The notes: generated from the letters alone by a model not told the origin. Positions 22,129 to 48,650 are shown, counted from the stretch's first letter. The stretch: DNA of 64,000 nt from an uncultured Gammaproteobacteria bacterium (GCA_964441335.1 CAYTUI010000001.1:961-64960); one strand, 5' to 3'. Translations and numbers: made by a program.

Positions 22129-22132
22129 AATT

Positions 22133-25290: not shown

Positions 25291-25307
25291 GGAAGGAGGT
25301 GTATAAT

Positions 25308-25442: not shown

Positions 25443-25443
25443 T

Positions 25444-28114: not shown

Positions 28115-28162
28115 TTTTTTTTAATTAAAGATAGTGTAAATTTTACAATAAATAATAAAGCC

Positions 28163-32449: not shown

Positions 32450-32459
32450 TCGTTGAAAG

Positions 32460-32491
32460 CCGCAGGGACGAGCAGCAGCTCGTCCCTGCGG
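32460..32491 (+). terminator. Hairpin terminator CCGCAGGGACGAGC-AGC-AGCTCGTCCCTGCGG
   Basis: 14-bp perfect stem; followed by AT-rich spacer with a second palindrome CCTTGTTTCAAACAAGG. Confidence 0.55.
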
Positions 32492-32600
32492 ACCCAATTT
32501 TGAAATAAAGAATTGCCAGTTTTATAAGTTGTCAGTTCCTTGTTTCAAACAAGGCCAAGTTCTTTGTAAATCTAAGAGATCAAAACCAAGGAGGAAAAAC

Positions 32601-33188: not shown

Positions 33189-33212
33189 CAGTTTCCAGGA
33201 GAGGAGTTTTCA

Positions 33213-34838
33213 GTGAGGAGTCTGTATCAAATCGTTCAGCAGATGTTTCCCCTGCAGCGTCTACCCTGGGATGAGTACTTCGCGGCCATGGCGCAGTCCG
33301 ACTTCAAGCTCGGGCGGCACCAGATTCCGGCCACCAAGTCATTCTTTATCAGGTCGGCGCCGTTTGGCGGATCGTTTGCGCTGCTGGGCGGTATTACCGA
33401 AGCCCTACGAACCATCAACGAGTTGCGCTTTGACGCAGATTTCCGGGCGATCATGGAGGAATTCGGCTACGAAGCCGATTTCCTGGACTGGTTGCAATCG
33501 GAAGAACGGTTGAAGGTTCAGGTCTACGCGCCGCCGGAAGGCAGCGTTTTCTTCCCCAGCGAGCCCGTGGTCACTTTTCGTGGGCCGTTGGCGCACATTC
33601 GGCTGGTCGAAGGCATGATGATTGAGGCGCTGAACTTCTCTACCTTGTCACTGACCAAATGGCAGCGACTGGTCAGGGTGGTGCGCCCCGGCTCTGTGTT
33701 GGAGTTCGCTCGTCGGCGATCGCAGCATCATCTCCGATCCTCGCTTTACGGTTTGCTGGCCGGTTGCCGGCAGATCAGCAACAGCGAAGCGGCCCGTCTG
33801 ATCGGCGTAAAGCCGGTCGGTACCATGGGTCATGAGTGGATGCAGTCGTTCGGCGATGTCCGCGAGGCCTTCGATGCCTGGCTCAAGGTCAATCCGCATA
33901 AGCCTGTTGGCTTGGTGGATACCTTGCAGTGTCTGGAGATCGATTTTCCGGCTTGGCTGGAGGCGGTCTACGAGCAGCGCGAGGTTGTAAAGGCCGCTGA
34001 CAGTCCGATCTGGGGCTGGCGCAACGATTCGGGTGACCTTGCCTACCTGACTATTGAGCAGTACATTCGCTTTTGGAAGCATCTGCTGTCTCAGGATCAG
34101 TGGTTTGCCGACCGCATGCACATTGTGCTGACCAACGATCTGGATGAGTACTCTTCGGAGGAAATCATCCAGCAGATTCGTAGCCAGGCCGGAGCCGCCG
34201 GTTTGGATGCCGAGGATCTGCTCCGACGGATCATTTGGGCGGCCGGTACCAAGCCGGGCACCTGCTATGATCAGCCGGCTTTGGGCGGCGTAGCCAAGCT
34301 GATGGAAGTCGATGGTCATGGCTGCATCAAGCTGGCTTTCGATGCCGACGGTAATCCGGGCGCCAAGACCTCGATTCCGGGGTTCAATCGCTCAGCGCTG
34401 ATCCGCGATCGTGATTCCGGTGAAGTTCACTGCCTGTTGATCTATCCGGCCGAGGACACTACTTTCCATCTGTTTGAGCATGATGGAGAAGGTTACTTCG
34501 GTGACGGGCGGAAGGGAGACGCTTGGGAGACCATTACCGCACATCATCCGGACACGCCCGGTTCGGAGCTGCACATCAAGAACTATCTGGTTCAGGGACG
34601 ACAGCAGCTGGTCTTTGATACGATCGATCAGAACGGCCTGACCGACGAGTGGATAGAGGACACTGTACAGTCGGTGGCTGAACGGGTTGTGAGGGAAATT
34701 GATTCCCTGCACTGGACTGTCAGCCGTCTCCGCAAGCCTCATCGGGTCAAGGTCTCTGTCACAGAAGGTCTGTTTGAGCAGCGGACGAATCTGATTCGTA
34801 CCCGCTGTCTGCGAACGGACAAGATGTGGAAGCAGTAG
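33213..34838 (+). CDS. pncB: Nicotinate phosphoribosyltransferase (PncB/NAPRT family, long form)
   Basis: N-terminal DEYFAAMAQ...SFFIRSAPFGGSFALLGGI..AL..L.ELRF and VYAPPEGSVFFPSEPVVTFRGPLAHIRLVE..MIEALNF.TL match type II PRTase NAPRTase conservation. Confidence 0.75.
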   Translation: MRSLYQIVQQMFPLQRLPWDEYFAAMAQSDFKLGRHQIPATKSFFIRSAPFGGSFALLGGITEALRTINELRFDADFRAIMEEFGYEADFLDWLQSEERLKVQVYAPPEGSVFFPSEPVVTFRGPLAHIRLVEGMMIEALNFSTLSLTKWQRLVRVVRPGSVLEFARRRSQHHLRSSLYGLLAGCRQISNSEAARLIGVKPVGTMGHEWMQSFGDVREAFDAWLKVNPHKPVGLVDTLQCLEIDFPAWLEAVYEQREVVKAADSPIWGWRNDSGDLAYLTIEQYIRFWKHLLSQDQWFADRMHIVLTNDLDEYSSEEIIQQIRSQAGAAGLDAEDLLRRIIWAAGTKPGTCYDQPALGGVAKLMEVDGHGCIKLAFDADGNPGAKTSIPGFNRSALIRDRDSGEVHCLLIYPAEDTTFHLFEHDGEGYFGDGRKGDAWETITAHHPDTPGSELHIKNYLVQGRQQLVFDTIDQNGLTDEWIEDTVQSVAERVVREIDSLHWTVSRLRKPHRVKVSVTEGLFEQRTNLIRTRCLRTDKMWKQ

Positions 34839-34970
34839 AGCTGCTACAAGCCGGTGGTCACCAGCAGGTGACCACCGGCCCTTACTTCAGCCTTGTCATA
34901 AAGAAAATGAAAGGGTTGAAGAGAGGCTAGTTCATTCAATGTCTATTCTAAAACCAAGGAGGTGCTCTAA

Positions 34971-35927
34971 ATGAGTTCTGCTCAGCCGATCGCTCACGGT
35001 AGCGGTCAAATGGGGGCGCAGTCTATCTCCATTCAGGTATCCACGCGGGAGCGTTGCAACGCCGGTTGTCGTTTTTGCATTTCGCGAACAACGCCGGGAG
35101 TGGAAACACCGGGCAATCCTCATGAAGTTAAGTTCTGCGATGAGCCGCGTCTGCAGGTCGGGTTGAACTATGCCCGGCAGTTGGGTGCGACGCATGCTAT
35201 CCTGACATCACGAGCTGATCCTTCGCAGGAGGACCCAAGGTATCTGCACCGACTGATCAGTACCAGTCGTCAGTTCTTGCCGCTAGTGGACATGCATACC
35301 AATGGTTTTCTTTGGCTGCCTGGTAAGCCGCAAGCCGATGATCTGTCTATACTGGTGGTTTCGGGTCTGACCATGCTTACTCTGTCGATCGCTTCTTTCG
35401 ATCAAAATCAGAATAGAGAGCTGATGATGATCCGCGAAAGCGGTGCCGGTTTGATCCGTCGGGCTCGGGATTTGGGTCTGCTGGTCCGCTGCTCTTTGGT
35501 TGTCAATTCCCAGGGAGTCAACGATTACCAGGGGGTTATCAACTACATCAAACAGGCCGGCAACCTGGGAGCCCACATGGTGGTCGTTAGAGAAGTCTGG
35601 CGACCGGAAGTGTATGGCGATTTCCAGCCCGAAGTGCTGGACTGGAACAACTGCAACTGGGTGGATATCGGTCCGATCCAGAGTCAGTTTATCCAGGCCG
35701 CCGGCCAGAGGGACAACCCTTACGGCTTGCAGCTTCGTGACCCCTTGCCCTGGGGCACACCGGTTATGGTGATGGGCGGAGTGTTCGACGACCCCAATCA
35801 TGGGGTCAATATCACTTTCGCTCGTTGCGAGGAGGGTACCAGGGGCTCGACCATTAAGAGCATCGTCCATAAGCCCGATGGTCACGGTTATCGCAACTGG
35901 GATCACAACGGCGATATCCTCTACTGA
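34971..35927 (+). CDS. Radical SAM domain protein (CX3CX2C)
   Basis: RERCNAGCRFCISRT cluster-binding motif near N-terminus; no further family assignment possible by eye. Confidence 0.6.
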   Translation: MSSAQPIAHGSGQMGAQSISIQVSTRERCNAGCRFCISRTTPGVETPGNPHEVKFCDEPRLQVGLNYARQLGATHAILTSRADPSQEDPRYLHRLISTSRQFLPLVDMHTNGFLWLPGKPQADDLSILVVSGLTMLTLSIASFDQNQNRELMMIRESGAGLIRRARDLGLLVRCSLVVNSQGVNDYQGVINYIKQAGNLGAHMVVVREVWRPEVYGDFQPEVLDWNNCNWVDIGPIQSQFIQAAGQRDNPYGLQLRDPLPWGTPVMVMGGVFDDPNHGVNITFARCEEGTRGSTIKSIVHKPDGHGYRNWDHNGDILY

Positions 35928-36057
35928 TTAGGTGGAGGACGGGGCATCTGCGTCGGCGCAGATGCCCCCTTTCCCGAGGTCTTATCATCTATAGATAAGG
36001 TCTTAGGAGAGTTCAGTTCTTTAACACGCAACCATCTAAAACCAAGGAGGAGAGGGA

Positions 36058-38082
36058 ATGCTAAAGTCCGAACAGTTTATGGACGTTCGACAGCATGGGT
36101 TTATCCGTTTGGCCGTGATTGTACCCAGAGTTCATTTGGGCAATGTACCGGCAAACGTGGCTGAACATCTGATGAAGATCAGCGAGGTTCGCAGACAAGG
36201 CGCCAGTTATATAGTGGCTCCTGAGTTGAGTCTGACCGGCTACTCCAACGGCGATCTGTTTCATTCACAGGCACTGCTGGAAGCGGCCGTGATCGGTTTG
36301 GGCGAGTTGCTGGAGGCAACGGCAGCCTGGCCGCAGATCATCTCGGTCGGCCTGCCCCTGCTGGTGGACGGCGCGGTCTACAACTGTGCTGTGACCATTC
36401 ATCGGGGCGTTATTCTGGCGGTGGTGCCTAAGGCCTATCCGCCGGAGTATCGCGAGTTTTATGAGCAGCGGCACTTCGCCTCGGCCTATGAGGCTCAGTC
36501 CACTGTTATCAACCTGCTGGGTCAGACAGCTGCTTTCGGAACCGACATTTTGTTGGTTTCGGATCACAACCCGCGTCTGACGATTCACACCGAGGTCTGC
36601 GAAGATCTTTGGGTGCCGATTCCGCCCAGCACTGAGGCGGCTCTAGCTGGCGCAACGGTGCTGGCCAACCTGTCGGCTTCCAATATCACCATCGGTAAGA
36701 GCGGATATCGGGAGCTGTTGGTGGCCGGATCGTCAGCCAAGAATCTGGCTGTGCAGATGTACAGCGCGGCAGGTTTCGGTGAGTCCACGACTGACCTGTC
36801 CTGGGACGGGGAAGCCCTGATCGCCGAGCGTGGCGAAATTCTGGTCAGGGGTCAGCGTTTCAGCCTTGACGGCGGCACTTCAGTTGTGGCCGACGTGGAT
36901 CTGGAGCTGTTGGCACTGGAACGCGCCAGGCAGAATTCCTTCAGGTCAAACGCCAGTCAGCATCCCCGTAAGTTCCGGCGCATCCTGATTACTGGACAGT
37001 TATCTGATGCTGTTCAGGACGGGCTGGAGCAGGTGCATCACAAGTTGCACCGCTTCGTGGATCCGCATCCCTTCGTGCCTAGCGACCAGTCTCAGCGCGA
37101 TGAGCGCTGTCGGGAAACTTTCCTGATTCAGGCAACGGCTTTGGCCAGACGGCTGGAACAGCTGCCACAGGATCGTCGGCACGTGGTGGTGGGTATTTCC
37201 GGTGGACAGGATTCAACGCACGCGCTCAACGTGGCGGTCCATGCTATGGATCTCATGAAGATGCCGCGTCGCAACATCCTGGCGGTAACCATGCCGGGGT
37301 TCGGCACAACCGACCTGACAAAGAACAATGCCGTGGCATTGGTCAAAGCGGTCGGCGCTGAACTGCTGGTGATTCCCGTTAGTGAACTGTCGCTCCTGAT
37401 GTTCCAAAACATCGGGCATAATCCGGATGAGCACGACCTGACCTACGAGAACGTTCAGGCTTGGGCCCGGATGTATACGGAGCTGTCATTAGCTGCCGAG
37501 AAAGGAGGGTTGGTACTGGGGACTGGTGACTTGTCGGAGCTGATGCTTGGCTGGTGTACTTACCTGGGTGATCACGCCAGTCATTATGGTATCAACGCCG
37601 GTGTGCCCAAGACTCTTATTTCCTATCTGATCGCCTGGACCGCAGAGCAGGTCTATGGAGAGAAGGAACCGGAAGTTAGGGGTATTCTGCAGAGCATTCT
37701 GGTAACTCCGATATCACCGGAGCTCTTACCACCGGCGGCTGACGGTTCTATAGCGCAGAGAACGGAAGACAAGGTTGGACCATATGAGCTGCATGATTTC
37801 TTCGGTTATTACTTCGTTCGCTTTGGTTTCAGCCCCAAGCGCATCGTGCGTCTGGCATTGGCTGCCTTTGGCGACAAGTACTCCATCGGAGAGATCAAGT
37901 CTTGGTTCAGGCTCTTCCTGACTCGTTTCTTCCGGAATCAGTTCAAGCGATCTTGTTTGCCCGATGGTCCCAAGGTAGGTCTGACGTGCATCTCGCCTCG
38001 CGGTGACTGGCGGATGCCCTCGGATGCTGACCCGACTGTTTGGCTTCAGGATCTGGAGCTGGTACCGGACAACCTCAACTAG
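36058..38082 (+). CDS. nadE: Glutamine-dependent NAD+ synthetase NadE (nitrilase-like glutaminase domain plus NAD synthetase domain)
   Basis: N-terminal CN-hydrolase fold (IVAPELSLTGY, ...CEDLW); C-terminal PP-loop VVGISGGQDST and long 674-aa architecture like actinobacterial NadE. Confidence 0.9.
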   Translation: MLKSEQFMDVRQHGFIRLAVIVPRVHLGNVPANVAEHLMKISEVRRQGASYIVAPELSLTGYSNGDLFHSQALLEAAVIGLGELLEATAAWPQIISVGLPLLVDGAVYNCAVTIHRGVILAVVPKAYPPEYREFYEQRHFASAYEAQSTVINLLGQTAAFGTDILLVSDHNPRLTIHTEVCEDLWVPIPPSTEAALAGATVLANLSASNITIGKSGYRELLVAGSSAKNLAVQMYSAAGFGESTTDLSWDGEALIAERGEILVRGQRFSLDGGTSVVADVDLELLALERARQNSFRSNASQHPRKFRRILITGQLSDAVQDGLEQVHHKLHRFVDPHPFVPSDQSQRDERCRETFLIQATALARRLEQLPQDRRHVVVGISGGQDSTHALNVAVHAMDLMKMPRRNILAVTMPGFGTTDLTKNNAVALVKAVGAELLVIPVSELSLLMFQNIGHNPDEHDLTYENVQAWARMYTELSLAAEKGGLVLGTGDLSELMLGWCTYLGDHASHYGINAGVPKTLISYLIAWTAEQVYGEKEPEVRGILQSILVTPISPELLPPAADGSIAQRTEDKVGPYELHDFFGYYFVRFGFSPKRIVRLALAAFGDKYSIGEIKSWFRLFLTRFFRNQFKRSCLPDGPKVGLTCISPRGDWRMPSDADPTVWLQDLELVPDNLN

Positions 38083-40500: not shown

Positions 40501-41202
40501 ATGAAGTGTAAATATAACACTAGAAATATGACTCGACCTAAAAGTATTGACGTTAAAAAATTAAAGTTTGCTATTATTGCTGTTGATGTGGCTGTCTTTC
40601 GGATTAACAACGGGATTTTAGAAGTGTTGCTGGGGGAGGTTATGAATCCTCACTTTAGAAACAGACCTGGTCTGATCGGTGGAGTTATCGAGACAACCGA
40701 AACAGCCGAGCAGGCAGTTGTTAATCATTTAAAAAATAAGACGGGCGTCAAAGTTGATTTTATTGAACAACTTCAGACATTTAGTAGAATTGACAGGGAT
40801 CCCCGCGGTCGCGTTTTGTCGGTTGCCTATTTGGCTATTATCAATAAGATAAGCCCTGTCGGAGGAAATATTAGAACCGTTTGGGTTCCAATTAACCAGG
40901 CCAAAAATTTAGCCTATGACCACGATGAAATATTGCGGGTAGCTGGTGAAAGACTGCGGGCTAAATTTGGTTATACTAATATTGCCCAGCATTTTTTACC
41001 GTTGAATTTTACTTTAACCGAACTGCAACAGGTTTATCAGATTGTTATGAATCAAACTATAGACAAGAGGAATTTTAGACGTAAAGTATTGAATGTCGGT
41101 TTAGTAGCACCGACCGGCAGAACAACGACTAAAGGCACCAAGAAACCTGCGCAACTGTTCAGATTCGCATCGTTGAAGCCAAAAATCATTGAACTGTTTT
41201 AA
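40501..41202 (+). CDS. Second NrtR-like regulator (Nudix-like domain plus C-terminal wHTH), paralog of 27440..28114
   Basis: Same architecture and alignable motifs (GG.IE..E.....V...L..KTGV, AYDH..I...A.ERLR.K..YTNI, FTLTELQ.VY..I....DKRNFR.KVL..GL). Confidence 0.7.
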   Translation: MKCKYNTRNMTRPKSIDVKKLKFAIIAVDVAVFRINNGILEVLLGEVMNPHFRNRPGLIGGVIETTETAEQAVVNHLKNKTGVKVDFIEQLQTFSRIDRDPRGRVLSVAYLAIINKISPVGGNIRTVWVPINQAKNLAYDHDEILRVAGERLRAKFGYTNIAQHFLPLNFTLTELQQVYQIVMNQTIDKRNFRRKVLNVGLVAPTGRTTTKGTKKPAQLFRFASLKPKIIELF

Positions 41203-41418
41203 TTTATCAGGGCGATATTTTTTTGCTTGTGAATAAGTGTCTACTTGACACTTATTTTGATTGTTGCTAAGGTAGAGGCAGAGGAGAAAGTGGACAACTA
41301 TTTAAGGGATTGACAAAATTCTATAAATATTGTAGGTTCACCAACTCTGTTTCTTTGACAATTTATAAGATATTTATAGTGAAATGGCCAAGAAACCTTG
41401 AAAGGAGGTGGACGACCA

Positions 41419-42245
41419 TGATTGTGAAACACGGAGACCGGCAATTCGAAGCCGGTCGTCTGGTGGCCGATAACGGCCGTTATCGCCAGTATCTCTGCGT
41501 GGAGATTGGCGCTGACAAGGAAAAGGAGTGTTTGTTGCAGATCGCCACCGCTACCAATGGTAACGGTCAACTCGATCGGGCAGCCTACTTCCTTCAGGAA
41601 CTTGAGCGTCGAGCTCGCGAAGTGGAGAAGGAGTTCAAGAAGGTCAGAACCGATCCCAAGGTGATGCTCAATTACGGGCTGGGCTTTCCCAAGCTGGTTG
41701 ACAGCTTCGTCTGTCAGGAGCAGGGCGGCCGCCGTATCAACATCCTGGCTTTCAGACGCGTTGATCAGGTTGGTCAGATGATCCCTTTGAGTAGTGTGAT
41801 CAAAAGCAACCTGATGATTGACCGTCGTACTAGCGTCTGGATTCTGGGAAAGCTTCTCAAGCTGTTGACTTTTAGTCACAGTGAAGGGATTGCTGTCGGA
41901 CGCCTGGACGCTGACAACATTCTGCTTCAGCCGAATCAGCACTACGTGGTGTTGTTTGACTGGTCGGAAGGAAGTCAGTATCCGGAAAAAGTGCCTGCGG
42001 AAATCGCCTGTCAGGAGATCACTCAAGCTGCCATATCAGTTATGGCCGCCCTGTACTATGATCCGGAGTCTGGGAAATTCCCTGACGATCCGGATGATCC
42101 TGACGATCGTTATGTCAAGCACCTGATGACTCTGGCTAAAGGTCAGGAGCATCGGGCGGATCAGGCTCACCAGGAATTCTACAAACTGGTTGACACTATC
42201 TGGGAAAGGAGATTCTACCCCTTTACGACTCGACCGAAGTTCTGA
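41419..42245 (+). CDS. APH/ChoK-like (aminoglycoside-phosphotransferase-fold) small-molecule kinase-like protein, GC-rich
   Basis: Catalytic-loop-like GRLDADNILL and metal-binding VVLFDWSEG (IDWE-type) motifs; start ATG 41419 after AAAGGAGG. ORF track lists 41310..42245. Confidence 0.5.
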
Positions 42246-42288
42246 AGCTACGCTACGTTAGACCAACGAAAGAAGGAGGACGAGTACT

Positions 42289-43452
42289 ATGGGACGCGAT
42301 ACCTTGTCTCGTGATGCCTTTACCAGAGTCAGCTCGTTGGCGACGAGGGGTGGCAGGAAAGCCACTCACGATGCTGAAGAGCAAGTCAGACAAGGCAAGG
42401 GTATTGATCCCCTTGTTGATCCGAAAGGGCCGTCTCATCTCGGTCCGATTCGTAGGTCGCTGCCGCGTTTTGAGAAGCAGAAGTCGCTTTGGCGATTGGT
42501 GATGAACATGCCGATGGCCGAGGAGACCCTGCTGGATACGACCGGTTCTATGCAACAAAACGTGGAGCTGGCGTTCGCGGCGTTGCCGAAGTCGTTCGGG
42601 ATGTACACCGAAGGATCTTGTCCGGTACTGGGTAGATACGATGTCCAGATCGCCACCGGAATCTTCAACGACGTCGACGATCTTGATGCAAATCCGTATG
42701 CCCAGGTCCTGTGTCGTTCGCAGTTTGAAATGGGCGAGAAGATCGCCTTGCAGATGACTCGGATGATCCCGGGACGCAACGGCTGCGGCAACTTCAAGGA
42801 GGATTCACAGTTTGGGCTGTTCGGAGCCGCCTATCTGACGGATGCCAGGATCACGAAGTACGGCCTCAGGACCTATCATTTCACGGTGTCGGACGAGCCG
42901 ACCGTGGAAACGATCGAACTGGGCTGGCTGAAGAAGATCTTCGGCGACGACGTGCTGGAGCGAACGGCCGAGAACGGCTGGGACTTCACCGCGCGTACTC
43001 TGCCGGACACGGCGCAGGCAGTTCGTGACCTGCAGACGCGGGCTCACGCCTTCTTTCTGCAAGTTCCGGGTTGGCATGATGAACGCAGGGTCACGAATCA
43101 GTGGACCGAGCTTTACGGCCCGGCTCATTTCGTGATGCTGCCCGGCGGGACTGAGTATGTGCACGCTGTCAAGGGCTGCATCATCGGTCTGACCGAGGGT
43201 GTTATCAGTCTCTCGTCGGCCAAGGACTTCCTGCGCGAGCATGGGGTTCCGGCTGACGCGGCTGCCAAAATCGTCCGCGCAGTCGCGCATATTCCTCTGG
43301 CAGCGCAGACCCTGGCTCCGAACTTCGACAAGCTGCCGAAGGTTGGGGATCTCTTCAAGGAAAAGACCGACCTCTGGCCGGTTGATCCCCAAGAGGTGCC
43401 GGAAGCGACTGTTGAAGACAAGGACAAGGGCGAGGAGACCGAGTGGCTGTAG
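42289..43452 (+). CDS. von Willebrand factor A (vWA) domain protein, TerY-like
   Basis: MIDAS motif LLDTTGSM after a ~70-aa N-terminal extension; strong SD GAAGGAGGA. Confidence 0.55.
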   Translation: MGRDTLSRDAFTRVSSLATRGGRKATHDAEEQVRQGKGIDPLVDPKGPSHLGPIRRSLPRFEKQKSLWRLVMNMPMAEETLLDTTGSMQQNVELAFAALPKSFGMYTEGSCPVLGRYDVQIATGIFNDVDDLDANPYAQVLCRSQFEMGEKIALQMTRMIPGRNGCGNFKEDSQFGLFGAAYLTDARITKYGLRTYHFTVSDEPTVETIELGWLKKIFGDDVLERTAENGWDFTARTLPDTAQAVRDLQTRAHAFFLQVPGWHDERRVTNQWTELYGPAHFVMLPGGTEYVHAVKGCIIGLTEGVISLSSAKDFLREHGVPADAAAKIVRAVAHIPLAAQTLAPNFDKLPKVGDLFKEKTDLWPVDPQEVPEATVEDKDKGEETEWL

Positions 43453-43498
43453 CTCCTTAACCTGACAACCGTAAATCCTAAACCAAAGAGAGGTGACT

Positions 43499-44884
43499 AT
43501 GACCAAGAAGGTCTACCTGGTCACCGATCTCGGTCCTGGAGACGGTGGTAAAGGTGGAGTGGTACACAAAGTCTCCAAGCTGATGCGTGCCCACACCATC
43601 ATCAAGGTTGGGGGTGCGCAAGGAAGCCATGGAGTCAGAACCTCAACAGGCGAACACTTCGCTTTCAGCCAATGGGGTTGCGGCACATTCGAGGGGGTGA
43701 GGTCTTACCTCTCCCCTCGGATGGTCGTTTCCCCGGAAGGGCTACTGAACGAAGCTGACGTTCTCCGCTACCGCTGGGGTATTTATAACCCCTTTGATCT
43801 ACTGATAGTGGACCAAAGGGCGTTGTGTGCCACGGCGTATCACGGGATTGCTTCGCGTCTAAAAGAAATGGCGCGCAAGGATAATCCCCGTGGCACGATC
43901 GGTACCGGAGTTGGCGAGGCTTACCGCGCTGCACAGCGGTTCCCTGATCTGGCGATTTATGCCCGTGATCTAAAACGGGCTGATCTGCGAGATCGGTTGG
44001 CCGTTGTTAGGCAACAACAGCAACAGGAATTGGCGCCGATCATAGCGGCGGAGTTTCTGCTCTATGATCAAGACGCCGTCGCCAAGGAAGTTAGTTGTCT
44101 GTTTGATGACGACTTCCTGGATTTCGTCGTTAGGCGGTTCCAAGAAGTATCCCAAAGAGCAACCATTGTTGACCAGGACTATCTGGGACGGGAAATCCTG
44201 TCCCGAGACGGTGTGGTCGTCGTGGAAAGCTCGCATGGGGTGCTGACTGATCACTACGCCGGGTTCCATCCGCACACCAGCGCCATTCGGACATTGCCTT
44301 GTTTCACCGAGGTGATGCTCCGGGAGGCTGGTTACAACGGACCAATCATCAACCTCGGGGTAACCCGAGCCTATCAGATACGCCACGGCGCAGGTCCGCT
44401 GCCAACTGCTGATCCAGCGTTGTCAGAGAATCTGTTGCCCGGCAGTCACAAGCAGGACAATCGTTACCAGGGCCAGGTTCGCGTTGGACCTCTGGACTTG
44501 GTGCTACTGCGCTACGCTCTGGCGGCTTGCGGCGGTCCAACTAGTTTTGATGGTTTGGCCATTACCTGGTTTGACCAGATTCAAGCTAATGGAGTTTGGC
44601 GTTTCTGTGACCGTTACCAAGGCAGTGACGACCCGACCTACTTCACGCCGTCCGGTGAGTTGCGGGTGCGGTTCGGAGCTGATGAAGAGCAGTTGTCCTT
44701 TCAAGAAAATCTCGGGCGTCAGCTTGGCAGTTGTCGTCCGGAGATTACTACCCAAGATATCCCGACGAGCATGGGGCGTGATGATCTGTATGATCTTTGC
44801 GCCAATACTCTGAAGGAGAAACTGGGTGTCCCTGTTCGCATGGTTTCGTTCGGTCCGACCGAGCGGGACAAAGTCTGCAAGTAA
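43499..44884 (+). CDS. Divergent adenylosuccinate synthetase (PurA)-like enzyme
   Basis: Alignable with PurA: P-loop TDLGPGDGGKGGVV (vs GDEGKGK), GGAQGSHGV (vs QGGHNAGHT), PRGTIGTGVGEAY (vs IGTTGRGIGPAY), VVESSHGVLTDHYAGFHPHTSA (vs [22 protein letters not shown]), TRAYQIRHGAGPLP (vs KAYSTRVGAGPFP). Confidence 0.65.
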   Translation: MTKKVYLVTDLGPGDGGKGGVVHKVSKLMRAHTIIKVGGAQGSHGVRTSTGEHFAFSQWGCGTFEGVRSYLSPRMVVSPEGLLNEADVLRYRWGIYNPFDLLIVDQRALCATAYHGIASRLKEMARKDNPRGTIGTGVGEAYRAAQRFPDLAIYARDLKRADLRDRLAVVRQQQQQELAPIIAAEFLLYDQDAVAKEVSCLFDDDFLDFVVRRFQEVSQRATIVDQDYLGREILSRDGVVVVESSHGVLTDHYAGFHPHTSAIRTLPCFTEVMLREAGYNGPIINLGVTRAYQIRHGAGPLPTADPALSENLLPGSHKQDNRYQGQVRVGPLDLVLLRYALAACGGPTSFDGLAITWFDQIQANGVWRFCDRYQGSDDPTYFTPSGELRVRFGADEEQLSFQENLGRQLGSCRPEITTQDIPTSMGRDDLYDLCANTLKEKLGVPVRMVSFGPTERDKVCK

Positions 44885-44913
44885 ATGCGTGAACGCGAAA
44901 GGAGATAGTGCAG

Positions 44914-46083
44914 ATGAGTGAAGATCGGGAAGGAACGCGGCAAATTTCCGCGGGTGATGCTATCGCTTTGTTGCTCACCGACCACGGCTTGGAAGCCGCG
45001 GTTATCGACAAGATCAAGACCGATCTGGGCGCCGCTACCGTTGAGGATTTGTCGGCGCTGACCGAAGCCGACCTCGTCGGTATCGGCATGAAGAAGCTGC
45101 CGGCTCGCAAGCTGGTGGCGGATCTGAAGCCGGTGGAGGTTGCTCCGACACCTGCGGCCAGTCCGGTCAGTACCATGTCCTTCGATTCCATCCTGCCCAA
45201 CGTCCCTACGGACTCTTCCTGGCTGGAAGCGCTTCGGACGGGCGGTGTTCTCAAGGTCGATCAGTCCACCGTCATCGGCGCCATTCGGGCGGCCTTGGCT
45301 CACAAGGCCAGGCTGTATGACATCCCGGACGGGCTGGTGACCATGTTGGAACGGTTCGCCGAGGAGAACGAGGAACAGGTGGACGTCGAGTTCTTCAAGT
45401 TGAAGAAGCAGCTGACCCGCCGAAACTACGCCGAGATCTTCTCGGCCATCGAAGGGCTGGACGGCAGCTACGTGACCGAGGGTCGGAAGAAGCAGCTGTT
45501 CGGTCGCATCGACGAGCATCTCTGGCCGTCGATCGAAACCTTCTACGGCCAGTTGAAGGGCTGGCAGGAGGCTTGGCTCCAGGGCGGGGCCAATCCGATG
45601 ATCATGATGAGCGCGATCATGGCGGCTTCGGGCGGCGGCGCGGGTGTCATGCCTCCCGGCGTGATGCAACCGCCGGATACCGGGGGGCTCCGTGATCATG
45701 CCGACGCCGTGGCCGACGCCATCAACAAGTGCTTCGCTGGCACTGGCGTGCAGATCGCGTCGGCTTTGGCCTACGATGCCACCAAGATCCGGGAGACGTT
45801 GGAGAACCCGCGTCTGCCGGCACTGGTCGGAGCTGCCAACCGCGATCAGATGCTCCGGCAACTGGGAGTGGCCGTTTCGGCCACCTACCCGCGGCTGGAG
45901 ACCAATCTGACCCGCTTCGTCCTGTCGACGTTGCAGGTCAAGGACCAGGCGGCCGGCACCGAGGAGCTGCAGTACTTCAGCTCCCTGTTCATGCTCGGGT
46001 CGCAGATCCCTTGGGATCAGCTTGGTAACAAGCGTCCCAGTGGCAAGCTCTCGGGCATCGGCGTCACGAGGCGCGACCTCTAG
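44914..46083 (+). CDS. Hypothetical protein, last gene of the GC-rich 4-gene operon
   Basis: ATG 44914 with SD AAAGGAG; 389 aa, Ala/Gly-rich, no recognisable motif; followed by terminator. Confidence 0.5.
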   Translation: MSEDREGTRQISAGDAIALLLTDHGLEAAVIDKIKTDLGAATVEDLSALTEADLVGIGMKKLPARKLVADLKPVEVAPTPAASPVSTMSFDSILPNVPTDSSWLEALRTGGVLKVDQSTVIGAIRAALAHKARLYDIPDGLVTMLERFAEENEEQVDVEFFKLKKQLTRRNYAEIFSAIEGLDGSYVTEGRKKQLFGRIDEHLWPSIETFYGQLKGWQEAWLQGGANPMIMMSAIMAASGGGAGVMPPGVMQPPDTGGLRDHADAVADAINKCFAGTGVQIASALAYDATKIRETLENPRLPALVGAANRDQMLRQLGVAVSATYPRLETNLTRFVLSTLQVKDQAAGTEELQYFSSLFMLGSQIPWDQLGNKRPSGKLSGIGVTRRDL

Positions 46084-46111
46084 ATCCAACGCGGTTCTGG
46101 AGTAACCTTGG

Positions 46112-46148
46112 GGCCGGACAACGACATGTTGTCCGGCCTCTTTTTTTA
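46112..46148 (+). terminator. Rho-independent terminator (GGCCGGACAACG-ACAT-GTTGTCCGGCC plus T9)
   Basis: Perfect 11-bp stem then TCTTTTTTTT; marks end of GC-rich island 2. Confidence 0.75.
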
Positions 46149-46198
46149 TCCAAAAAAATAAACCGCGATATTTTATTAGGCAGTTTATTATTGTTTGA

Positions 46199-48127
46199 TT
46201 ATTTAGAAATTTTTGGCAGAAAAACCCGGCTGGCAAATAGTTTGGTAGCTGTTTGCCGATAACCAGAATCCCAAAAGGTGCTTTGACCGTCAATCAAATC
46301 AGAATGCGGAGTGCTAATACCACCAAAGGTAGGGAAATATCGGCTATAACCTTTATGCATTAGTCGGTAGTGCAAAGTGTCCCGTTCCATTTCTTCAAGA
46401 TATAAACCTCGTGCTTCCCGATCGTAAATTATTTTATCTGTGTCATACATATATGGCGTCAGCAATTGGCCTTGCAATTGTTTAATGGTTGTCTTATCAC
46501 CTTCCCAGGCCGCTCCAAACAAGACATGTGTCCAGGTACTATGACCAAGTGAAACATCAGGTTTGTCAAAGTCGCGGACAGCTAAGCCGTCAGCAGTTTC
46601 TTCCAGCCAAAATTCAACCACTTGCCCCTGTATCTTTTCATGAGAGAATATTTTTCTTAGTGCAGCCTGTAATTGACCGCGATTATCCGAAGAGGTGCCG
46701 GGTTTGATAAATACTCCAACATCAATGTCGGCGTTTTGCTGACCATAACCTTTGAGGCGCGAGCCAAAAATCAAAGCCACTGGGTAGATGAATTTTGTCA
46801 GTTCATGATCAGATTCAATTAAGCCAATAATATCTTGGACATCGCTCATCTCGGTTTTCATAGTTTTAAGGTTTTCGGAAAACGGGCCAGCTAATTGAGG
46901 GATGGTGATATCTAGTTTGTCTAACTGTTGATCATCTAAAATACCTAATCCGTGCAACCGACAAAATGTTTTGGACAAAGCCTCGCGGATTTCCATCGTG
47001 TCATTATCCCATAAAGATAGCAGTGTTTCCCGATAGCGATCGTATAGTGCCAGAGCTTCATCATTGGACGCAGTTTCAACAGCCATTCTAATGCCTTCAA
47101 TTAAAGCCAGTTGGCAGGTAGGATCAGCTTCAGCTGTGGCTAATTGTGAGACAATCTCAGCCGACAGTTTATTGTCGGCAATGGCCAGACTGATATCCTC
47201 GGCGGCTGATTTAACGGCTTGCTGTTTCTTTTCTTGTTTAAGCCAAGCTGTCCGTTTTTTAGTGATGCCCCTAATCTCTTCAGCGTCAATGCGACTAAAT
47301 TCTTCTCGCAGTTTATTTTGTAGTGTTGATAATGTTATGTCTGACGATTGAACTTTATCGTCATCTTTATTTTCCCATGAGCTGATAAGTATTGCCATAT
47401 TGCGAGCTAGCGGATCGGCAGAGGCCTTAAGACGCGCTATTTCAGGTTTTTGTATGAACCCTAGATCAGCTAACACGGGCAGGGTATCGGCAATACTTTG
47501 TTTTAAAGTCTCATCCTCGCTGGTTTCCAATAGTTTAAAAACGTCTTCAATTGCAATTAAATTATTTTCTACCAATTTAGGAATTAGATGAGCAGCTTTG
47601 ACGACTCGGGGTAAATCAGACACTCGCGATTCTACTTCCAGAACATCGCCGTCAACAAAATTAGCCCGGACATCATGTATATGCAGTAAATCATTCCAAG
47701 CGGCTAAATAGGCTTCTTTAAATTGTGCGGCTGCCTTTTTGAGTTCTGGCGATTCAGGCTGCCAATCAGCCTTTGGTAAAAATTCAAAAGGCAGATAGAG
47801 AACAAGACGTTTATAGTCCGAGCTGGTCTCTAATAAATTGCTTAGTGAGACGTATAATTCAGCTACCTGGCTTTCAGTTAAATGATTTTCAGAGACAGCA
47901 CTTTGTAAAGTGATATCTGGTCGCGGCAGTCTGGAGATAACAGCGTCCAGCCGTTGGTTAAGCTCTTGCCTGTCGGCCACTTGTTTTAAAAATTCTTTAT
48001 TGTCGCTAAGGTGCTCGGGCCAGGCAATTTTGGCTTGTTCAGGATCAAGCAGTAACTCTACGGCCGGTGGAGTAAAAATGTCGATTTTGGGTAACTCTTT
48101 TTGGTTGTCTAATCTTTCGTTATTCAT
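46199..48127 (-). CDS. Large (642 aa) protein with C-terminal Pol-beta-superfamily nucleotidyltransferase domain and long helical N-terminal region
   Basis: GSRLKGYGQQNADIDVGVFIKP (GS-x10-DxD) NTase signature near residue 490, with downstream acidic EFWLEE. The N-terminal 480 aa are helical and unassigned. Confidence 0.55.
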   Translation of the reverse strand: MNNERLDNQKELPKIDIFTPPAVELLLDPEQAKIAWPEHLSDNKEFLKQVADRQELNQRLDAVISRLPRPDITLQSAVSENHLTESQVAELYVSLSNLLETSSDYKRLVLYLPFEFLPKADWQPESPELKKAAAQFKEAYLAAWNDLLHIHDVRANFVDGDVLEVESRVSDLPRVVKAAHLIPKLVENNLIAIEDVFKLLETSEDETLKQSIADTLPVLADLGFIQKPEIARLKASADPLARNMAILISSWENKDDDKVQSSDITLSTLQNKLREEFSRIDAEEIRGITKKRTAWLKQEKKQQAVKSAAEDISLAIADNKLSAEIVSQLATAEADPTCQLALIEGIRMAVETASNDEALALYDRYRETLLSLWDNDTMEIREALSKTFCRLHGLGILDDQQLDKLDITIPQLAGPFSENLKTMKTEMSDVQDIIGLIESDHELTKFIYPVALIFGSRLKGYGQQNADIDVGVFIKPGTSSDNRGQLQAALRKIFSHEKIQGQVVEFWLEETADGLAVRDFDKPDVSLGHSTWTHVLFGAAWEGDKTTIKQLQGQLLTPYMYDTDKIIYDREARGLYLEEMERDTLHYRLMHKGYSRYFPTFGGISTPHSDLIDGQSTFWDSGYRQTATKLFASRVFLPKISK

Positions 48128-48650
48128 AGTGGGTATTATAAACTACTGTCTGCCTAGAACACAAGCGGGTATTTTTACGCAACAACTTGTGGTTATCTTT
48201 AGATAGAATGGAATAGATGAAGCCCCGTCCAGATGTACCGAACGGGGCTTCGCGAGCATTCATCGCACTTGCGTGCGGGCAGGAGTGAACCAACCGGTTC
48301 TGATGTCGTTTCGCCTACATATAGGGTGTCGTCTTTTGTTCCACTTGGGGAACTGTGTCCCGCTTGGGAACCCCTTTGCGAAAACGTTGCCACCAGTCAC
48401 TCCTGATTGTGCCTGATTGCCGCTCCGAGCGCTATCTACCAGCTACGGGGGATGGTCCGTCACGAGATTCACGCGAACCTCCTAGTTGATCCGACACTGG
48501 TCGATGGATAGCTAGCTCCCGAAGGAACCGCTGGCAACATACTATACTTTATTTGGTAAATTGTCAATATCAGTCGGTTTAGGGCTAAATAAATGGTATA
48601 ATATAATCATGAAATTTAAGTTTAGAGGCTTTACCCAGCACCGTTTTTGT

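What the first reader, a model, noticed from the sequence alone, without database searches (positions are those of the whole stretch)
41300..46150. GC-rich 4-gene operon: APH/ChoK-like kinase, TerY-like vWA, divergent PurA-like ligase and an unknown protein - candidate uncharacterised nucleotide-metabolite or conflict system
Four tightly spaced, co-directional genes sit on about 60% GC DNA. All have strong AAGGAGG-type RBSs and the operon closes with a perfect terminator.
- The kinase-like protein has APH-family catalytic (GRLDADN) and IDWE-type (FDWSEG) motifs, i.e. a small-molecule rather than protein kinase.
- The second protein has a vWA MIDAS (LLDTTGSM) as in TerY of tellurite-resistance and phage-stress loci.
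- The third is clearly homologous to adenylosuccinate synthetase but with altered P-loop and substrate-site residues (GDGGKGG; VESSHG for FEGAQG). This is reminiscent of PurA paralogs such as phage PurZ that act on non-IMP purine nucleotides.
- The fourth has no detectable homology.
A housekeeping purA would not be expected in this context, so the combination suggests synthesis or modification of a nucleotide-like compound.
Basis: partly seen in the sequence, partly recalled or inferred. Interest (0 to 1): 0.8.

Follow-up and report, generated by a model that had tools for sequence, protein, structure and literature searches.

The report
NAD-linked PurA-like ligase module
The four genes are real and, with a fifth gene next door, form a module built around an enzyme that looks like adenylosuccinate synthetase but has lost its aspartate site; the module occurs across the ultra-small CPR bacteria, is tied to the NAD regulator NrtR, shares its core with large phages, and has no known function.

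Summary
**Observation:** confirmed. Four co-directional genes (41418-46083) have foreign GC (GC3 0.58-0.81 against 0.32-0.45 for host genes) and end in a 14-bp terminator.

**Interpretation:** partly right.
- g3 is a PurA-fold enzyme. It keeps the GTP and catalytic residues but lacks the aspartate loop and most IMP-phosphate ligands. It is neither a housekeeping PurA nor PurZ-like.
- g2 has a vWA fold with a MIDAS-like motif. A TerY assignment is unsupported.
- g1 has a kinase fold, but its "catalytic" motifs are not conserved among orthologs, so it is a pseudokinase and not APH/ChoK.
- g4 is a SAM/HhH-like domain followed by a novel helical domain.

**New findings:**
- The convergent gene 46199-48127 (Pol-beta nucleotidyltransferase) belongs to the system. 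It is syntenic in 13 of 13 other CPR loci and is fused to the PurA-like protein in other bacteria.
- The vWA + PurA-like pair recurs in large Mycobacterium, Rhizobium and Vibrio phages.
- In CPR the module sits beside NrtR and NAD genes and shares an AGTGT-N7-ACACT box with them.

**Best reading:** an NrtR-controlled multiprotein GTP-dependent ligase acting on a non-IMP, non-aspartate substrate in NAD/ADP-ribose metabolism. The chemistry is unknown. I found no description in the searchable literature.

The parts
40528..41202 (+). NrtR-family regulator (inactive NUDIX domain plus winged helix). It has host-like composition and is the likely regulator of the module.
   Evidence: Pfam NrtR_WHD 1.6e-22, AraR_C and NUDIX. 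The public gene call starts at the position equivalent to 40528. GC3 is 0.38. An NrtR homolog lies directly upstream of g1 in L006 and L023 too, and upstream of nadB-nadA-g1 in L017.
40504..40522 (.). Candidate NrtR operator upstream of nrtR (AAGTGTAAATATAACACTA)
   Evidence: It is one of 12 GTGT-N7-ACAC sites in 314 kb of CPR loci, all of them intergenic and next to module or NAD genes.
41232..41256 (.). Perfect 10+10 palindrome AATAAGTGTC-TACTT-GACACTTATT, a candidate NrtR operator. It overlaps a TTGACA hexamer at 41245-41250. It could alternatively be a weak nrtR terminator.
   Evidence: The terminator scan also lists it, with only 3 GC pairs.
41418..42245 (+). g1: protein-kinase-fold protein without conserved catalytic residues (pseudokinase), 275 aa
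   Evidence: PHROG 3043 'kinase' 6e-12. The family profile hits CK2 and StkP in PDB at about 1e-6. The ortholog alignment shows that the HRD-Asp, VAIK-Lys, catalytic-loop Asn and DFG-like Asp positions vary. It is homologous to the cluster C phage 'kinase' gp250.
42289..43452 (+). g2: vWA-fold protein, 387 aa. It has an invariant D83-x-T85-x-S87 and D202, a conserved N-terminal MG..F/W..Y peptide and a C-terminal ...WL.
43499..44884 (+). g3: divergent PurA-superfamily GTP-dependent ligase, 461 aa
   Evidence: Pfam PF00709 1.5e-31. NCBIfam purA scores 72 bits against a cutoff of 402. Residue mapping onto E. coli PurA. The 120 listed CPR orthologs are 63-75% identical. The family has 1374 50%-identity clusters at E<=1e-30.
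44914..46083 (+). g4: SAM/(HhH)2-like N-terminal domain (about residues 13-71), a disordered linker and a novel all-alpha domain, 389 aa. It is CPR-specific and dispensable in some lineages.
46110..46140 (+). Intrinsic terminator closing the operon
   Evidence: 14-bp stem, 9 GC pairs, T-run.
46199..48127 (-). p642: fifth component. It has a conserved helical N-terminal half and a Pol-beta-type nucleotidyltransferase domain (GS...DxD at about residues 455-469). It is convergent to the operon and has host-like composition.
   Evidence: Pfam Polbeta 6.9e-6 and NCBIfam MntA-like 1.8e-5. Syntenic in all 13 other CPR loci. Fused C-terminally to the PurA-like protein in P0396 and P0441. Alignment.

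Best explanation
The four genes plus the convergent gene 46199-48127 form one conserved five-protein module. Its catalytic core is a PurA-type, GTP-dependent ligase (g3).

**g3.** It keeps the phosphoryl-transfer machinery of adenylosuccinate synthetase. Its acceptor and nucleophile pockets are rebuilt. So it most likely phosphorylates an oxygen on a ribonucleotide-type substrate other than free IMP, then lets a nitrogen nucleophile other than L-aspartate displace the phosphate.

**g2.** This vWA/MIDAS protein is the obligate partner. The vWA + PurA-like pair is the unit conserved from jumbo phages to CPR bacteria. g2 probably docks onto or presents something to the enzyme.

**g1, g4 and p642.**
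- g1 is a catalytically dead kinase-fold scaffold or ligand sensor.
- g4 is a CPR-specific SAM/HhH-helical adaptor.
- p642 is a Pol-beta nucleotidyltransferase that acts with or on the ligase; in some bacteria the two are one polypeptide.

**Regulation.** In CPR bacteria the module is transcribed under an NrtR-family (ADP-ribose-sensing) repressor together with NAD salvage and synthesis genes. Its job therefore lies in the NAD/ADP-ribose nucleotide economy rather than in purine synthesis.

**Shown:** gene structure, folds, residue conservation and loss, synteny, fusions, phage distribution, shared operator-like box.

**Inferred:** complex formation, GTP use, substrate class, NrtR control, link to NAD.

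The exact substrate and product are not known.
For: **Enzyme**
- PF00709 matches over the full length.
- These PurA positions are invariant in 120/120 CPR orthologs and present in the phage homologs: P-loop G12, D13, G15, K16, G17; His41; E221; G225; D333; G416. S414 is kept in 118/120 and P417 in 104/120.
- The aspartate loop TTGRRRR becomes (Y/W)QG-K(V/F)R.
- T129 becomes I, R131 becomes T, R143 becomes E/D, V273 becomes H, K331 becomes W.
- Q224 becomes H in CPR only.
- NCBIfam purA equivalog scores are 37-72 bits against cutoffs of 368-700.

**Module**
- The order g1-g2-g3-(g4) with a convergent p642 holds in all 13 other CPR loci, which include MAGs labelled Saccharibacteria, Peribacteria, Pacebacteria and Paceibacterota.
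- Rosetta-stone fusions PurA-like::p642-like exist (P0396, 1129 aa; P0441, 1102 aa). In P0396's locus the two genes upstream match the g1 and g2 profiles (hhalign 99.7% and 99.9%). P0441's locus has upstream genes of matching size (312 and 364 aa) that were not compared.

**Phages**
- Kinase-like, vWA and PurA-like genes are adjacent in 203 cluster C mycobacteriophages and in two other large viral contigs.
- The vWA + PurA-like pair is also found in Rhizobium phage RHph_TM30 and Vibrio phage pv27 (hhalign 99.5% and 99.6%).

**NAD link**
- NrtR lies directly upstream in the window, L006 and L023, and with nadB-nadA in between in L017.
- NAD or PRPP genes lie within 10 kb in the window, L006, L010, L016, L017, L023 and L025.
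- All 12 GTGT-N7-ACAC sites in 314 kb of CPR loci (shuffle mean 4.2) lie in intergenic regions. They sit upstream of nrtR, g1, nadB, the divergent p642/nadE region, the intergenic region upstream of the p642 homolog in L023, and prs/NUDIX.
- g1-g4 and the NAD block 29958-38082 share the same foreign GC3.
Against: - No biochemical evidence exists for any step.
- NAD genes are not adjacent in about half of the CPR loci (L008, L011-L013, L015, L024).
- They are also not adjacent in cluster C mycobacteriophages, where the neighbours are a polynucleotide kinase and an RlaP nucleotidyltransferase.
- The operator assignment rests on motif recurrence only. The window's palindrome could instead be the nrtR terminator.
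- Retention of Asp13 and His41 is compatible with ordinary AdSS chemistry.
- The roughly 70% identity across CPR classes looks like a housekeeping enzyme.
- Complex formation is inferred from synteny and fusion, not shown.
- No multimer model could be run.
Confidence: 0.42

Rival explanations
1. g3 is simply the organism's, and the phages', adenylosuccinate synthetase. It would make AMP from salvaged IMP, for example to feed ATP into NAD synthesis. The neighbouring genes would be unrelated or merely regulatory.
For: - Full-length PF00709 match, with the catalytic Asp and His, the P-loop and the guanine-specificity Asp/Ser retained.
- Sources annotate it as adenylosuccinate synthetase.
- Very high conservation, 63-75% identity over the 120 listed orthologs.
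- No other purA in the 64-kb window.
- NAD synthesis consumes ATP.
Against: - The aspartate-binding loop is replaced: T300, T301 and R305 are substituted and R303 is deleted. The IMP 5'-phosphate ligands T129 and R143 are also replaced, in 120/120 orthologs.
- Scores lie 5-10 fold below every NCBIfam purA equivalog cutoff.
- There is an obligate vWA partner, and fusion to a nucleotidyltransferase protein.
- No purB lies nearby.
- The family has 1374 clusters that are closer to g3 than E. coli PurA is.
Confidence: 0.12
2. It is a conflict system. Either it is an anti-phage defence or toxin-antitoxin-like module (vWA plus kinase-fold sensor, MntA-like nucleotidyltransferase, nucleotide-modifying effector), or it is a phage counter-defence captured by CPR bacteria.
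For: - The core genes occur in large phages.
- One bacterial copy lies next to terminase and recombinase genes.
- The operon has foreign composition in this genome.
- There are weak PADLOC hits: PD-T4-6 and MkoA kinases for g1, PDC-S09 for the p642 nucleotidyltransferase domain.
- It resembles the vWA-kinase 'TerY-P' theme (own knowledge).
Against: - PADLOC hits are all E>=1e-4 and cover only generic domains.
- No nuclease, NADase, pore or other effector domain is present.
- The module is found throughout CPR, with orthologs 63-75% identical in the same gene order. This is unlike patchy, fast-evolving defence islands.
- It is co-regulated with biosynthetic NAD genes.
Confidence: 0.12
3. It is a protein-directed ligase. 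The amine that replaces aspartate would be the alpha-amino group of the conserved N-terminal glycine of the vWA partner, or another protein amine. g3 would then covalently join a nucleotide to g2, and the NTase and pseudokinase would build on or read that mark.
For: - The vWA + PurA-like pairing is strict across very distant lineages.
- The Arg-rich aspartate site is replaced by aromatic and aliphatic residues.
- The N-terminal motif M-G-x-x-x-[FW]-[SDN]-x-x-x-Y is kept in 98/120 CPR orthologs and in all five phage homologs, despite about 25% overall identity.
Against: - The fused-type bacterial homologs (L026, L028) start MRTTD and MTRPTD, without Gly2.
- 22 of 120 CPR orthologs also lack MG.
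- A conserved terminus may be only a docking peptide.
- There is no precedent for this chemistry in the PurA family.
Confidence: 0.08
4. It is an RNA repair or modification module. The PurA-like enzyme would modify a base (inosine- or guanosine-type lactam) in RNA or tRNA, together with a nucleotidyltransferase and an HhH-type nucleic-acid-binding protein.
For: - In cluster C phages the triad lies between a polynucleotide kinase and an RlaP RNA-repair nucleotidyltransferase. The genome also encodes Ro-like and RNA ligase proteins.
- A CCA-adding enzyme lies near the triad in L022.
- g4 has an (HhH)2/SAM-like domain.
- Loss of the free 5'-phosphate ligands would fit a polymer-embedded nucleotide.
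Against: - No RNA-repair genes are linked in any CPR locus.
- RlaP is not detectably homologous to p642.
- NrtR and NAD linkage is the recurrent signal in bacteria.
- The SAM-like fold is as likely a protein-interaction domain.
Confidence: 0.08

Closest known systems
Adenylosuccinate synthetase PurA (EC 6.3.4.4; Pfam PF00709)
   Same: Same fold over the full length. It shares the GDxGKG P-loop with the catalytic Asp, the catalytic His, the FEGxxG-region Glu/Gly, the (T)xxD guanine-specificity Asp and the SxGP motif. It therefore probably shares GTP-dependent O-phosphorylation followed by N-displacement.
   Different: - The aspartate loop and most IMP 5'-phosphate ligands are replaced.
- It scores far below the equivalog cutoffs.
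- It is always paired with a vWA protein.
- It is sometimes fused to a nucleotidyltransferase protein.
- It is under NrtR, not purine, control.
PurZ (phage 2-aminoadenine pathway PurA paralog)
   Same: Both are PurA paralogs carried by phages and thought to act on a non-IMP substrate. PHROG 1211, named for PurZ, is the best phage-family hit (1.8e-42).
   Different: - PurZ still uses aspartate (own knowledge). In the one example examined, Microbacterium phage Htur, the PurA-like gene sits among replication genes.
- g3 lacks the aspartate loop.
- At E 1e-5 g3 matched only cluster C phages, while E. coli PurA also matched Microbacterium, Vibrio, Acinetobacter and other phages.
- g3 scores 27 bits against the replication-module PurA-like protein of Microbacterium phage Htur, which has no vWA neighbour.
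- I did not verify biochemically which phage homologs are true PurZ.
TerY-P triad (vWA TerY + Ser/Thr kinase + PP2C phosphatase of Ter stress loci; own knowledge of Anantharaman, Iyer & Aravind 2012)
   Same: A vWA/MIDAS protein encoded next to a kinase-fold protein in a compact operon. One phage copy (RHph_TM30) lies beside PRTase_3, HAD and NUDIX genes. From memory, PRTase_3 is a Ter-associated family; this was not checked here.
   Different: - The kinase-fold protein lacks conserved catalytic residues.
- There is no PP2C and no TerD/TerZ genes.
- g2 matches no Pfam vWA family by sequence.
- A PurA-like ligase and a nucleotidyltransferase replace the phosphatase.
Phage NAD+ reconstitution pathways NARP1, NARP2 and NARP3
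   Same: These are gene sets shared by phages and bacteria that are tied to NAD/ADP-ribose. The window itself carries PnuC + NadR (the NARP3 composition; PMC13464706) and NAPRT/NMNAT genes next to the module.
   Different: None of the NARP enzymes (Adps, Namat, NampT, Nmnat, PnuC, NadR) is homologous to g1-g4. Any NAD-rebuilding role for the module is hypothesis only.
Glutamine synthetase with its GlnE adenylyltransferase (own knowledge)
   Same: A ligase that phosphorylates an oxygen and then adds nitrogen, controlled by a Pol-beta-fold nucleotidyltransferase. This is offered as an analogy for g3 and p642.
   Different: No homology of g3 to GS. p642 has a single NTase domain with a novel N-terminal half. 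Regulation by nucleotidylation is untested.

Membership tests
Adenylosuccinate synthetase (PurA) | PF00709 fold with the GDxGKG P-loop, catalytic Asp13 and His41 | tested here: met
   (1.5e-31, residues 16-458); invariant in 120/120 orthologs.
Adenylosuccinate synthetase (PurA) | L-aspartate-binding loop (Thr300, Thr301, Arg303, Arg305 in E. coli) | tested here: not met
   Y/W, Q, deletion and V/F at these positions in all CPR orthologs and phage homologs.
Adenylosuccinate synthetase (PurA) | IMP 5'-phosphate ligands (Thr129, Arg143', Thr239) and Gln224 | tested here: not met
   I, E/D and S respectively. Gln224 becomes His in CPR but is kept in three of the phage homologs.
Adenylosuccinate synthetase (PurA) | Score above the curated equivalog cutoff (NCBIfam TIGR00184 / NF002223) | tested here: not met
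   70.9 and 72.4 bits against cutoffs of 395.55 and 402.
Adenylosuccinate synthetase (PurA) | Catalyses IMP + Asp + GTP -> adenylosuccinate | not testable with these tools
   Needs an enzyme assay or purA complementation.
PurZ | Closer in sequence to PurZ-type phage enzymes than to other PurA-like proteins, and located in a replication / dATP-removal module | tested here: not met
   g3 hits only cluster C phages at 1e-5; 27 bits to the replication-module homolog. There are no DNA-metabolism neighbours in CPR.
TerY-P triad / TerY vWA | vWA fold with a MIDAS motif | tested here: met
TerY-P triad / TerY vWA | Active Ser/Thr kinase and PP2C phosphatase partners, with linkage to ter genes | tested here: not met
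   catalytic residues are not conserved; no PP2C or TerD-family genes in any locus.
APH/ChoK small-molecule kinases | Match to the APH/ChoK family, and a conserved HxDxxxxN...D catalytic signature | tested here: not met
   no family hit at E<=0.1; the positions vary (GRLDADN, SQLTGSN, EQLDGDS, GPITPGK; FDW/FNW); the nearest solved relatives are protein kinases.
NrtR regulon (NAD metabolism) | Adjacent NrtR-family regulator, and an operator shared with NAD genes | tested here: met
   for adjacency. for the AGTGT-N7-ACACT box upstream of nrtR, g1, nadB, the p642/nadE divergent region, the region upstream of the p642 homolog in L023, and prs/NUDIX. Actual binding was not testable.
MntA-HepT type VII toxin-antitoxin (for p642) | Small MntA-type NTase paired with a HEPN toxin | tested here: not met
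   24.5 bits against a cutoff of 60, covering the NTase motif only. p642 is 642 aa, and no HEPN gene is present in any locus.
Catalogued anti-phage defence systems (PADLOC-DB 2.0) | Significant match of the components to a defence-system model | tested here: not met
   only E>=1e-4 hits to generic kinase or NTase domains. g2, g3 and g4 have none.

The most novel reading that the evidence does not exclude
The vWA + PurA-like pair is a previously unknown machine for rebuilding NAD+ or recycling ADP-ribose.

**Proposed chemistry.** g3 would use GTP to phosphorylate an oxygen of an NAD breakdown product, for example the anomeric 1''-OH of ADP-ribose or the carboxylate of a nicotinate nucleotide. 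A nitrogen nucleophile (nicotinamide or ammonia) would then displace the phosphate and regenerate a pyridine nucleotide in one active site.

**Proposed biology.** Large phages would carry it to survive NADase-based immunity. CPR bacteria, which live on salvaged nucleotides, would have domesticated it under NrtR together with a nucleotidyltransferase partner.

The aromatic replacements in the former aspartate pocket (Y/W, V/F, W, H) would fit a pyridine ring.
Probability: 0.12. Interest if true: 0.95.

Novelty: categorically new. Interest (0 to 1): 0.78.

Why it matters
**Annotation.** Thousands of CPR/Patescibacteria genomes carry this gene labelled 'adenylosuccinate synthetase'. If it is not PurA, metabolic reconstructions of these organisms are wrong at that step. 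An abundant, highly conserved five-protein module is then functionally blank.

**NAD metabolism.** The module is wired to the NAD/ADP-ribose regulator NrtR, and its core is shared with large phages of three unrelated hosts. NAD depletion and reconstitution is currently a central theme of phage-bacterium conflict. A new GTP-dependent ligase chemistry in that arena would matter for phage biology, for CPR physiology (dependence on hosts for nucleotides) and for enzymology of the PurA superfamily.

**Testability.** The fusions, the pseudokinase and the vWA partner make it a directly testable multiprotein system.

Tried and rejected
**Family searches that found nothing**
- Pfam, NCBIfam and PADLOC gave nothing significant for g1, g2 and g4.
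- PHROGs gave nothing for g2 and g4.
- PDB profile searches gave nothing for g2, g4 and p642 beyond weak SAM or NTase signals.

**Homology tests that failed**
- The cluster C phage nucleotidyltransferase (RlaP, 1.5 kb downstream of the phage PurA-like gene) versus p642: no homology by hhalign.
- The extra C-terminal domain of the 700-aa PurA-like protein P0425 versus g1: no homology.
- RHph_TM30 genes EVB93_014 and EVB93_016 versus g1: no homology. The pseudokinase is therefore undetected in that phage.

**g4 helical domain**
- The afdb50 library was unavailable.

**Collection scans**
- The genome-contig scan returned only 6 loci because the peptide patterns were strict.

**Literature**
- Eight searches found no description of a PurA-like + vWA + kinase module. 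Terms covered PurA-like, vWA, kinase, NAD, anti-defence, CPR, NrtR and RlaP.
- The jumbo-phage survey (PMC7824862), NARP3 (PMC13464706) and a CPR metabolism survey (PMC7304191) do not mention it.

**Considered and rejected**
- APH/ChoK kinase, TerY membership, PurZ membership, and MntA-HepT toxin-antitoxin.

**GC-rich region 48190-48560**
- It is not a known Rfam family and is not conserved upstream of p642 elsewhere.

Full report
**1.

Four co-directional ORFs lie on the + strand. The sequence around each start gives these coordinates:
- g1: 41418-42245 (ATG, preceded by GAAAGGAGG)
- g2: 42289-43452 (GAAGGAGG)
- g3: 43499-44884 (GAGAGGTGA, weaker)
- g4: 44914-46083 (AAAGGAGA)

Public gene calls on identical contigs give the same lengths of 275, 387, 461 and 389 aa. 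A 14-bp, 9-GC hairpin with a T-run at 46110-46140 closes the operon.

The block is compositionally foreign. GC3 is 0.58-0.81, against 0.32-0.45 for neighbouring host genes. Those host genes include the regulator upstream and the convergent gene downstream. A second block, 29958-38082, has the same foreign composition and encodes NAD enzymes: an NMNAT-NAD kinase fusion, a NUDIX protein, NAPRTase, a radical-SAM protein and NadE.

The window is chromosomal DNA of a groundwater Patescibacteria (CPR) genome. It carries DnaG, RpoD, Mfd, TopA, ParAB, RelA and a type IV pilin.

**2. What the four proteins are**

*g3.*
- It matches Pfam Adenylsucc_synt over its full length (1.5e-31) and bacterial PurA structures at about 1e-9.
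- It reaches only 37-72 bits against NCBIfam purA equivalogs, whose cutoffs are 368-700.
- I aligned it to E. coli PurA together with 120 CPR orthologs and three phage homologs.
- Retained residues, listed by E. coli position. All are invariant in the 120 CPR orthologs except where a count is given:
  - the P-loop (G12, D13, G15, K16, G17)
  - His41 (one alignment shifts it by one column)
  - E221 and G225
  - the guanine-specificity D333
  - S414 (118/120), G416 and P417 (104/120)
- Changed residues:

| E. coli residue | Role (own knowledge of the E. coli structure) | g3 family |
|---|---|---|
| T300 | aspartate site | Y/W |
| T301 | aspartate site | Q |
| R303 | aspartate site | deleted |
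| R305 | aspartate site | V/F |
| T129 | IMP 5'-phosphate | I |
| R143 | IMP 5'-phosphate | E/D |
| R131 | - | T |
| V273 | - | H |
| K331 | - | W |
| Q224 | - | H in CPR only |

- So the phosphoryl-transfer apparatus is kept, but the pockets for aspartate and for a free 5'-NMP are rebuilt.
- The family is large: 1374 clusters at 50% identity with E<=1e-30.

*g2.*
- It matches no sequence family.
- D83-x-T85-x-S87 and D202 are invariant across 40 orthologs, which is consistent with a working MIDAS.
- Two termini are unusually conserved:
  - an N-terminal M-G-x-x-x-[FW]-[SDN]-x-x-x-Y, in 98/120 CPR orthologs and all five phage homologs
  - a C-terminal ...W-L, in 111/120 orthologs, CPR only

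*g1.*
- It has a protein-kinase-like fold. It hits PHROG 3043 'kinase' at 6e-12. Its family profile hits CK2 and StkP at about 1e-6. It is homologous to the phage 'Ser/Thr kinase'.
GRLDADN appears as SQLTGSN, EQLDGDS, TLLSGNN and GPITPGK, and FDW appears as FNW. The beta3 Lys position is Gln.
- It is therefore best called a pseudokinase.

*g4.*
- A disordered linker follows, then an all-alpha domain with no match in PDB or BFVD.
- It is as conserved as g3 in CPR, mostly 60-75% identical.
- It is missing in L009, L026 and L028, and its C-terminal part is replaced in L006.

**3. The unit is larger than the finding**

The convergent gene 46199-48127 (p642) has a conserved helical N-terminal half and a Pol-beta nucleotidyltransferase domain with a GS...DxD motif. 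It follows the operon in all 13 other CPR loci examined. Those loci include MAGs labelled Saccharibacteria, Peribacteria, Pacebacteria and Paceibacterota.

Two proteins from other bacteria (P0396, 1129 aa; P0441, 1102 aa) are end-to-end fusions of a PurA-like domain and a p642-like protein. In P0396's locus the fusion is preceded by a g1 homolog (hhalign 99.7%) and a g2 homolog (99.9%), with no g4. P0441's locus has upstream genes of 312 and 364 aa in the same positions and no g4; I did not compare them with g1 and g2. This is classic Rosetta-stone evidence that the ligase and the nucleotidyltransferase protein work together.

**4. The core is shared with phages**

- g1, g2 and g3 each hit cluster C (Bixzunavirus) mycobacteriophages, and g1 and g3 each hit 203 records. 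There the kinase-like gene, gp251, a 90-aa ORF and the 'PurA-like' gene are adjacent.
- The triad recurs in two unrelated large viral contigs (L019, 224 kb; L022, 134 kb).
- The vWA + PurA-like pair alone occurs in Rhizobium jumbo phage RHph_TM30 and Vibrio phage pv27. The upstream gene matches the g2 profile at hhalign 99.5% and 99.6%.
- By contrast, the PurA-like gene of Microbacterium phage Htur sits in a replication module, which is the setting expected of PurZ. It has no vWA neighbour and shares only 27 bits with g3.
- At E 1e-5, g3 found none of the Microbacterium, Vibrio or Acinetobacter phages that E. coli PurA finds.
- The minimal conserved unit is therefore vWA + PurA-like. The pseudokinase is frequent, and the nucleotidyltransferase protein is bacterial.

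**5. Link to NAD**

*Gene neighbourhoods.*
- In the window an NrtR-family regulator (40528-41202) sits directly upstream. The NAD block lies 3 kb further up.
- In L006 and L023 the order is NrtR, then g1-g4, then p642. NAD genes follow: PncA, NADK, NUDIX, NAPRT and NadE in L006, and NMNAT, NAPRT, Prs and NadE in L023.
- In L017 the module is embedded in the order NrtR-NadB-NadA-[module]-NadE-rSAM-NADK-NUDIX-NMNAT-NAPRT-PncA.
- L010, L016 and L025 have NadE/NAPRT, Prs/NUDIX and an NMNAT-like gene nearby.

*Shared motif.*
- The motif GTGT-N7-ACAC (extended form TWAGTGTA-N5-TACACTAA) occurs 12 times in 314 kb of these loci, against a shuffle mean of 4.2.
- Every occurrence lies in an intergenic region. 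The sites are upstream of nrtR, of g1 (window, L006, L016), of nadB, in the divergent region between the p642 homolog and nadE in L017, upstream of the p642 homolog in L023, and between prs and a NUDIX gene.
- In the window it is a perfect 10+10 palindrome at 41232-41256 that overlaps a TTGACA hexamer.
- I infer that this is the NrtR operator and that the module belongs to the NrtR regulon. Binding is untested. The window palindrome could double as a weak terminator.

*Limits.* The linkage is not universal. Six CPR loci and the mycobacteriophages show no NAD genes within 10 kb.

**6. Mechanism**

*Shown:* a conserved five-gene module; a PurA-type catalytic centre with changed substrate pockets; an obligate vWA/MIDAS partner; a kinase fold without catalytic residues; fusion to a nucleotidyltransferase protein; co-location and a shared operator-like box with NAD genes.

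*Inferred:*
- The proteins form a complex.
- g3 uses GTP to phosphorylate an oxygen of a ribonucleotide-type substrate that is not free IMP.
- A nitrogen nucleophile that is not aspartate displaces the phosphate.
- g2 adapts or presents the substrate.
- g1 and g4 scaffold or sense.
- p642 acts with or on g3, by analogy with GlnE and glutamine synthetase (own knowledge).
- Expression follows ADP-ribose/NAD status through NrtR.

I put 0.42 on this general statement. The rivals are:

| Rival | Confidence |
|---|---|
| Ordinary PurA | 0.12 |
| Defence or conflict system | 0.12 |
| Protein-directed ligase using the partner's N-terminal Gly | 0.08 |
| RNA repair or modification | 0.08 |

The remaining probability is 'something else'. 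The most novel reading not excluded is a GTP-driven NAD-rebuilding or ADP-ribose-recycling enzyme shared by phages and CPR (0.12).

**7. Comparison with known systems and novelty**

The module fails the defining tests for PurA (aspartate loop, phosphate ligands, equivalog score) and for PurZ. It also fails them for the TerY-P triad (no active kinase, PP2C or ter genes), APH/ChoK, MntA-HepT and all PADLOC systems.

Eight literature searches and three papers read gave no description of it. I therefore rate the system architecture as categorically new, although each fold is familiar. The rating rests on absence from a partial literature library and on inference, not on biochemistry.

**8. Horizontal transfer**

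In this genome g1-g4 and the NAD block share a donor-like GC3, while NrtR and p642 are native in composition. In other CPR loci the operon is also 5-10 points GC-richer than its flanks. This suggests repeated replacement of the operon in place, or a compositional constraint on these genes. I did not resolve which.

Noticed in passing
window 29958-38082: This is a second GC-rich block (GC3 0.60-0.71). It encodes an unknown 305-aa protein, an NMNAT-NAD kinase fusion, a NUDIX protein, NAPRTase, a radical-SAM protein of unknown role (also present in the NAD cluster of L017) and NadE. Almost every gene is followed by its own GC-rich hairpin and preceded by AAGGAGG. The block was probably co-acquired with g1-g4.
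   Followed up: partly
window 27281-29712: A second NrtR paralog (27440-28114) lies with PnuC (28163-28741) and a NadR-like NMNAT/kinase (28708-29712). This is the gene content of the phage NARP3 pathway. Two exact copies of CTGTTTTAAACAT (27281 and 27344) precede it, a different candidate operator from the AGTGT-N7-ACACT box.
   Followed up: partly
window 48190-48560 (minus strand): This is a GC-rich intergenic stretch between the pilin gene and p642. It folds well on the minus strand (z = -3.45; the plus strand gives -0.36). It has a TTGACA-17-TAGTAT promoter-like site at 48567-48539 and a strong hairpin near 48219-48251. It has no Rfam family and no counterpart in the other loci. It may be an unclassified small RNA or a leader.
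   Followed up: partly
window 41353-41365; also L008, L010, L012, L015 upstream of g1: A short motif CTTTRACAAYTT lies between the TTGACAAAT-type promoter and the ribosome-binding site of g1. It recurs in several distant CPR lineages that lack the NrtR box. It may be a second regulatory element in the 5' UTR.
   Followed up: no
window 42289-42321 and 43444-43449 (g2 termini): The N-terminal peptide MG...[FW][SDN]...Y of the vWA protein is conserved between CPR and phages despite about 25% overall identity. The C-terminal Trp-Leu is conserved in 111/120 CPR orthologs. These are possible docking or modification sites.
   Followed up: partly
L029 (Rhizobium phage RHph_TM30 4623-17531): The phage vWA + PurA-like pair lies a few genes downstream of a HAD hydrolase, a PRTase_3 (ComF-like phosphoribosyltransferase) and a NUDIX protein. 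A HIRAN-domain protein sits between them. This suggests a nucleotide-metabolite context in a phage as well.
   Followed up: partly
L028 (contig of fusion protein P0441): In this non-CPR bacterium the module is a PurA::NTase fusion preceded by genes of 312 and 364 aa in the g1 and g2 positions (not compared). It lies directly next to a terminase-like gene, a ParB-methyltransferase and a serine recombinase, that is, in or beside a prophage-like element.
   Followed up: no
window 13568-26878: A metal-handling cluster contains two P-type ATPases with HMA domains, two HMA-DsbD-like membrane proteins (one with a cupredoxin domain) and a BlaR1/M48-type peptidase. This is an unusually large copper-type resistance investment for a small CPR genome.
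   Followed up: no
L022 4282-5292 and 9663-10973; L015 16467-17693: A TPM-domain protein precedes the triad in viral contig L022, and an HI0933-like FAD protein follows it. An HI0933-like FAD protein also lies near the module in CPR locus L015. This may be coincidence.
   Followed up: no
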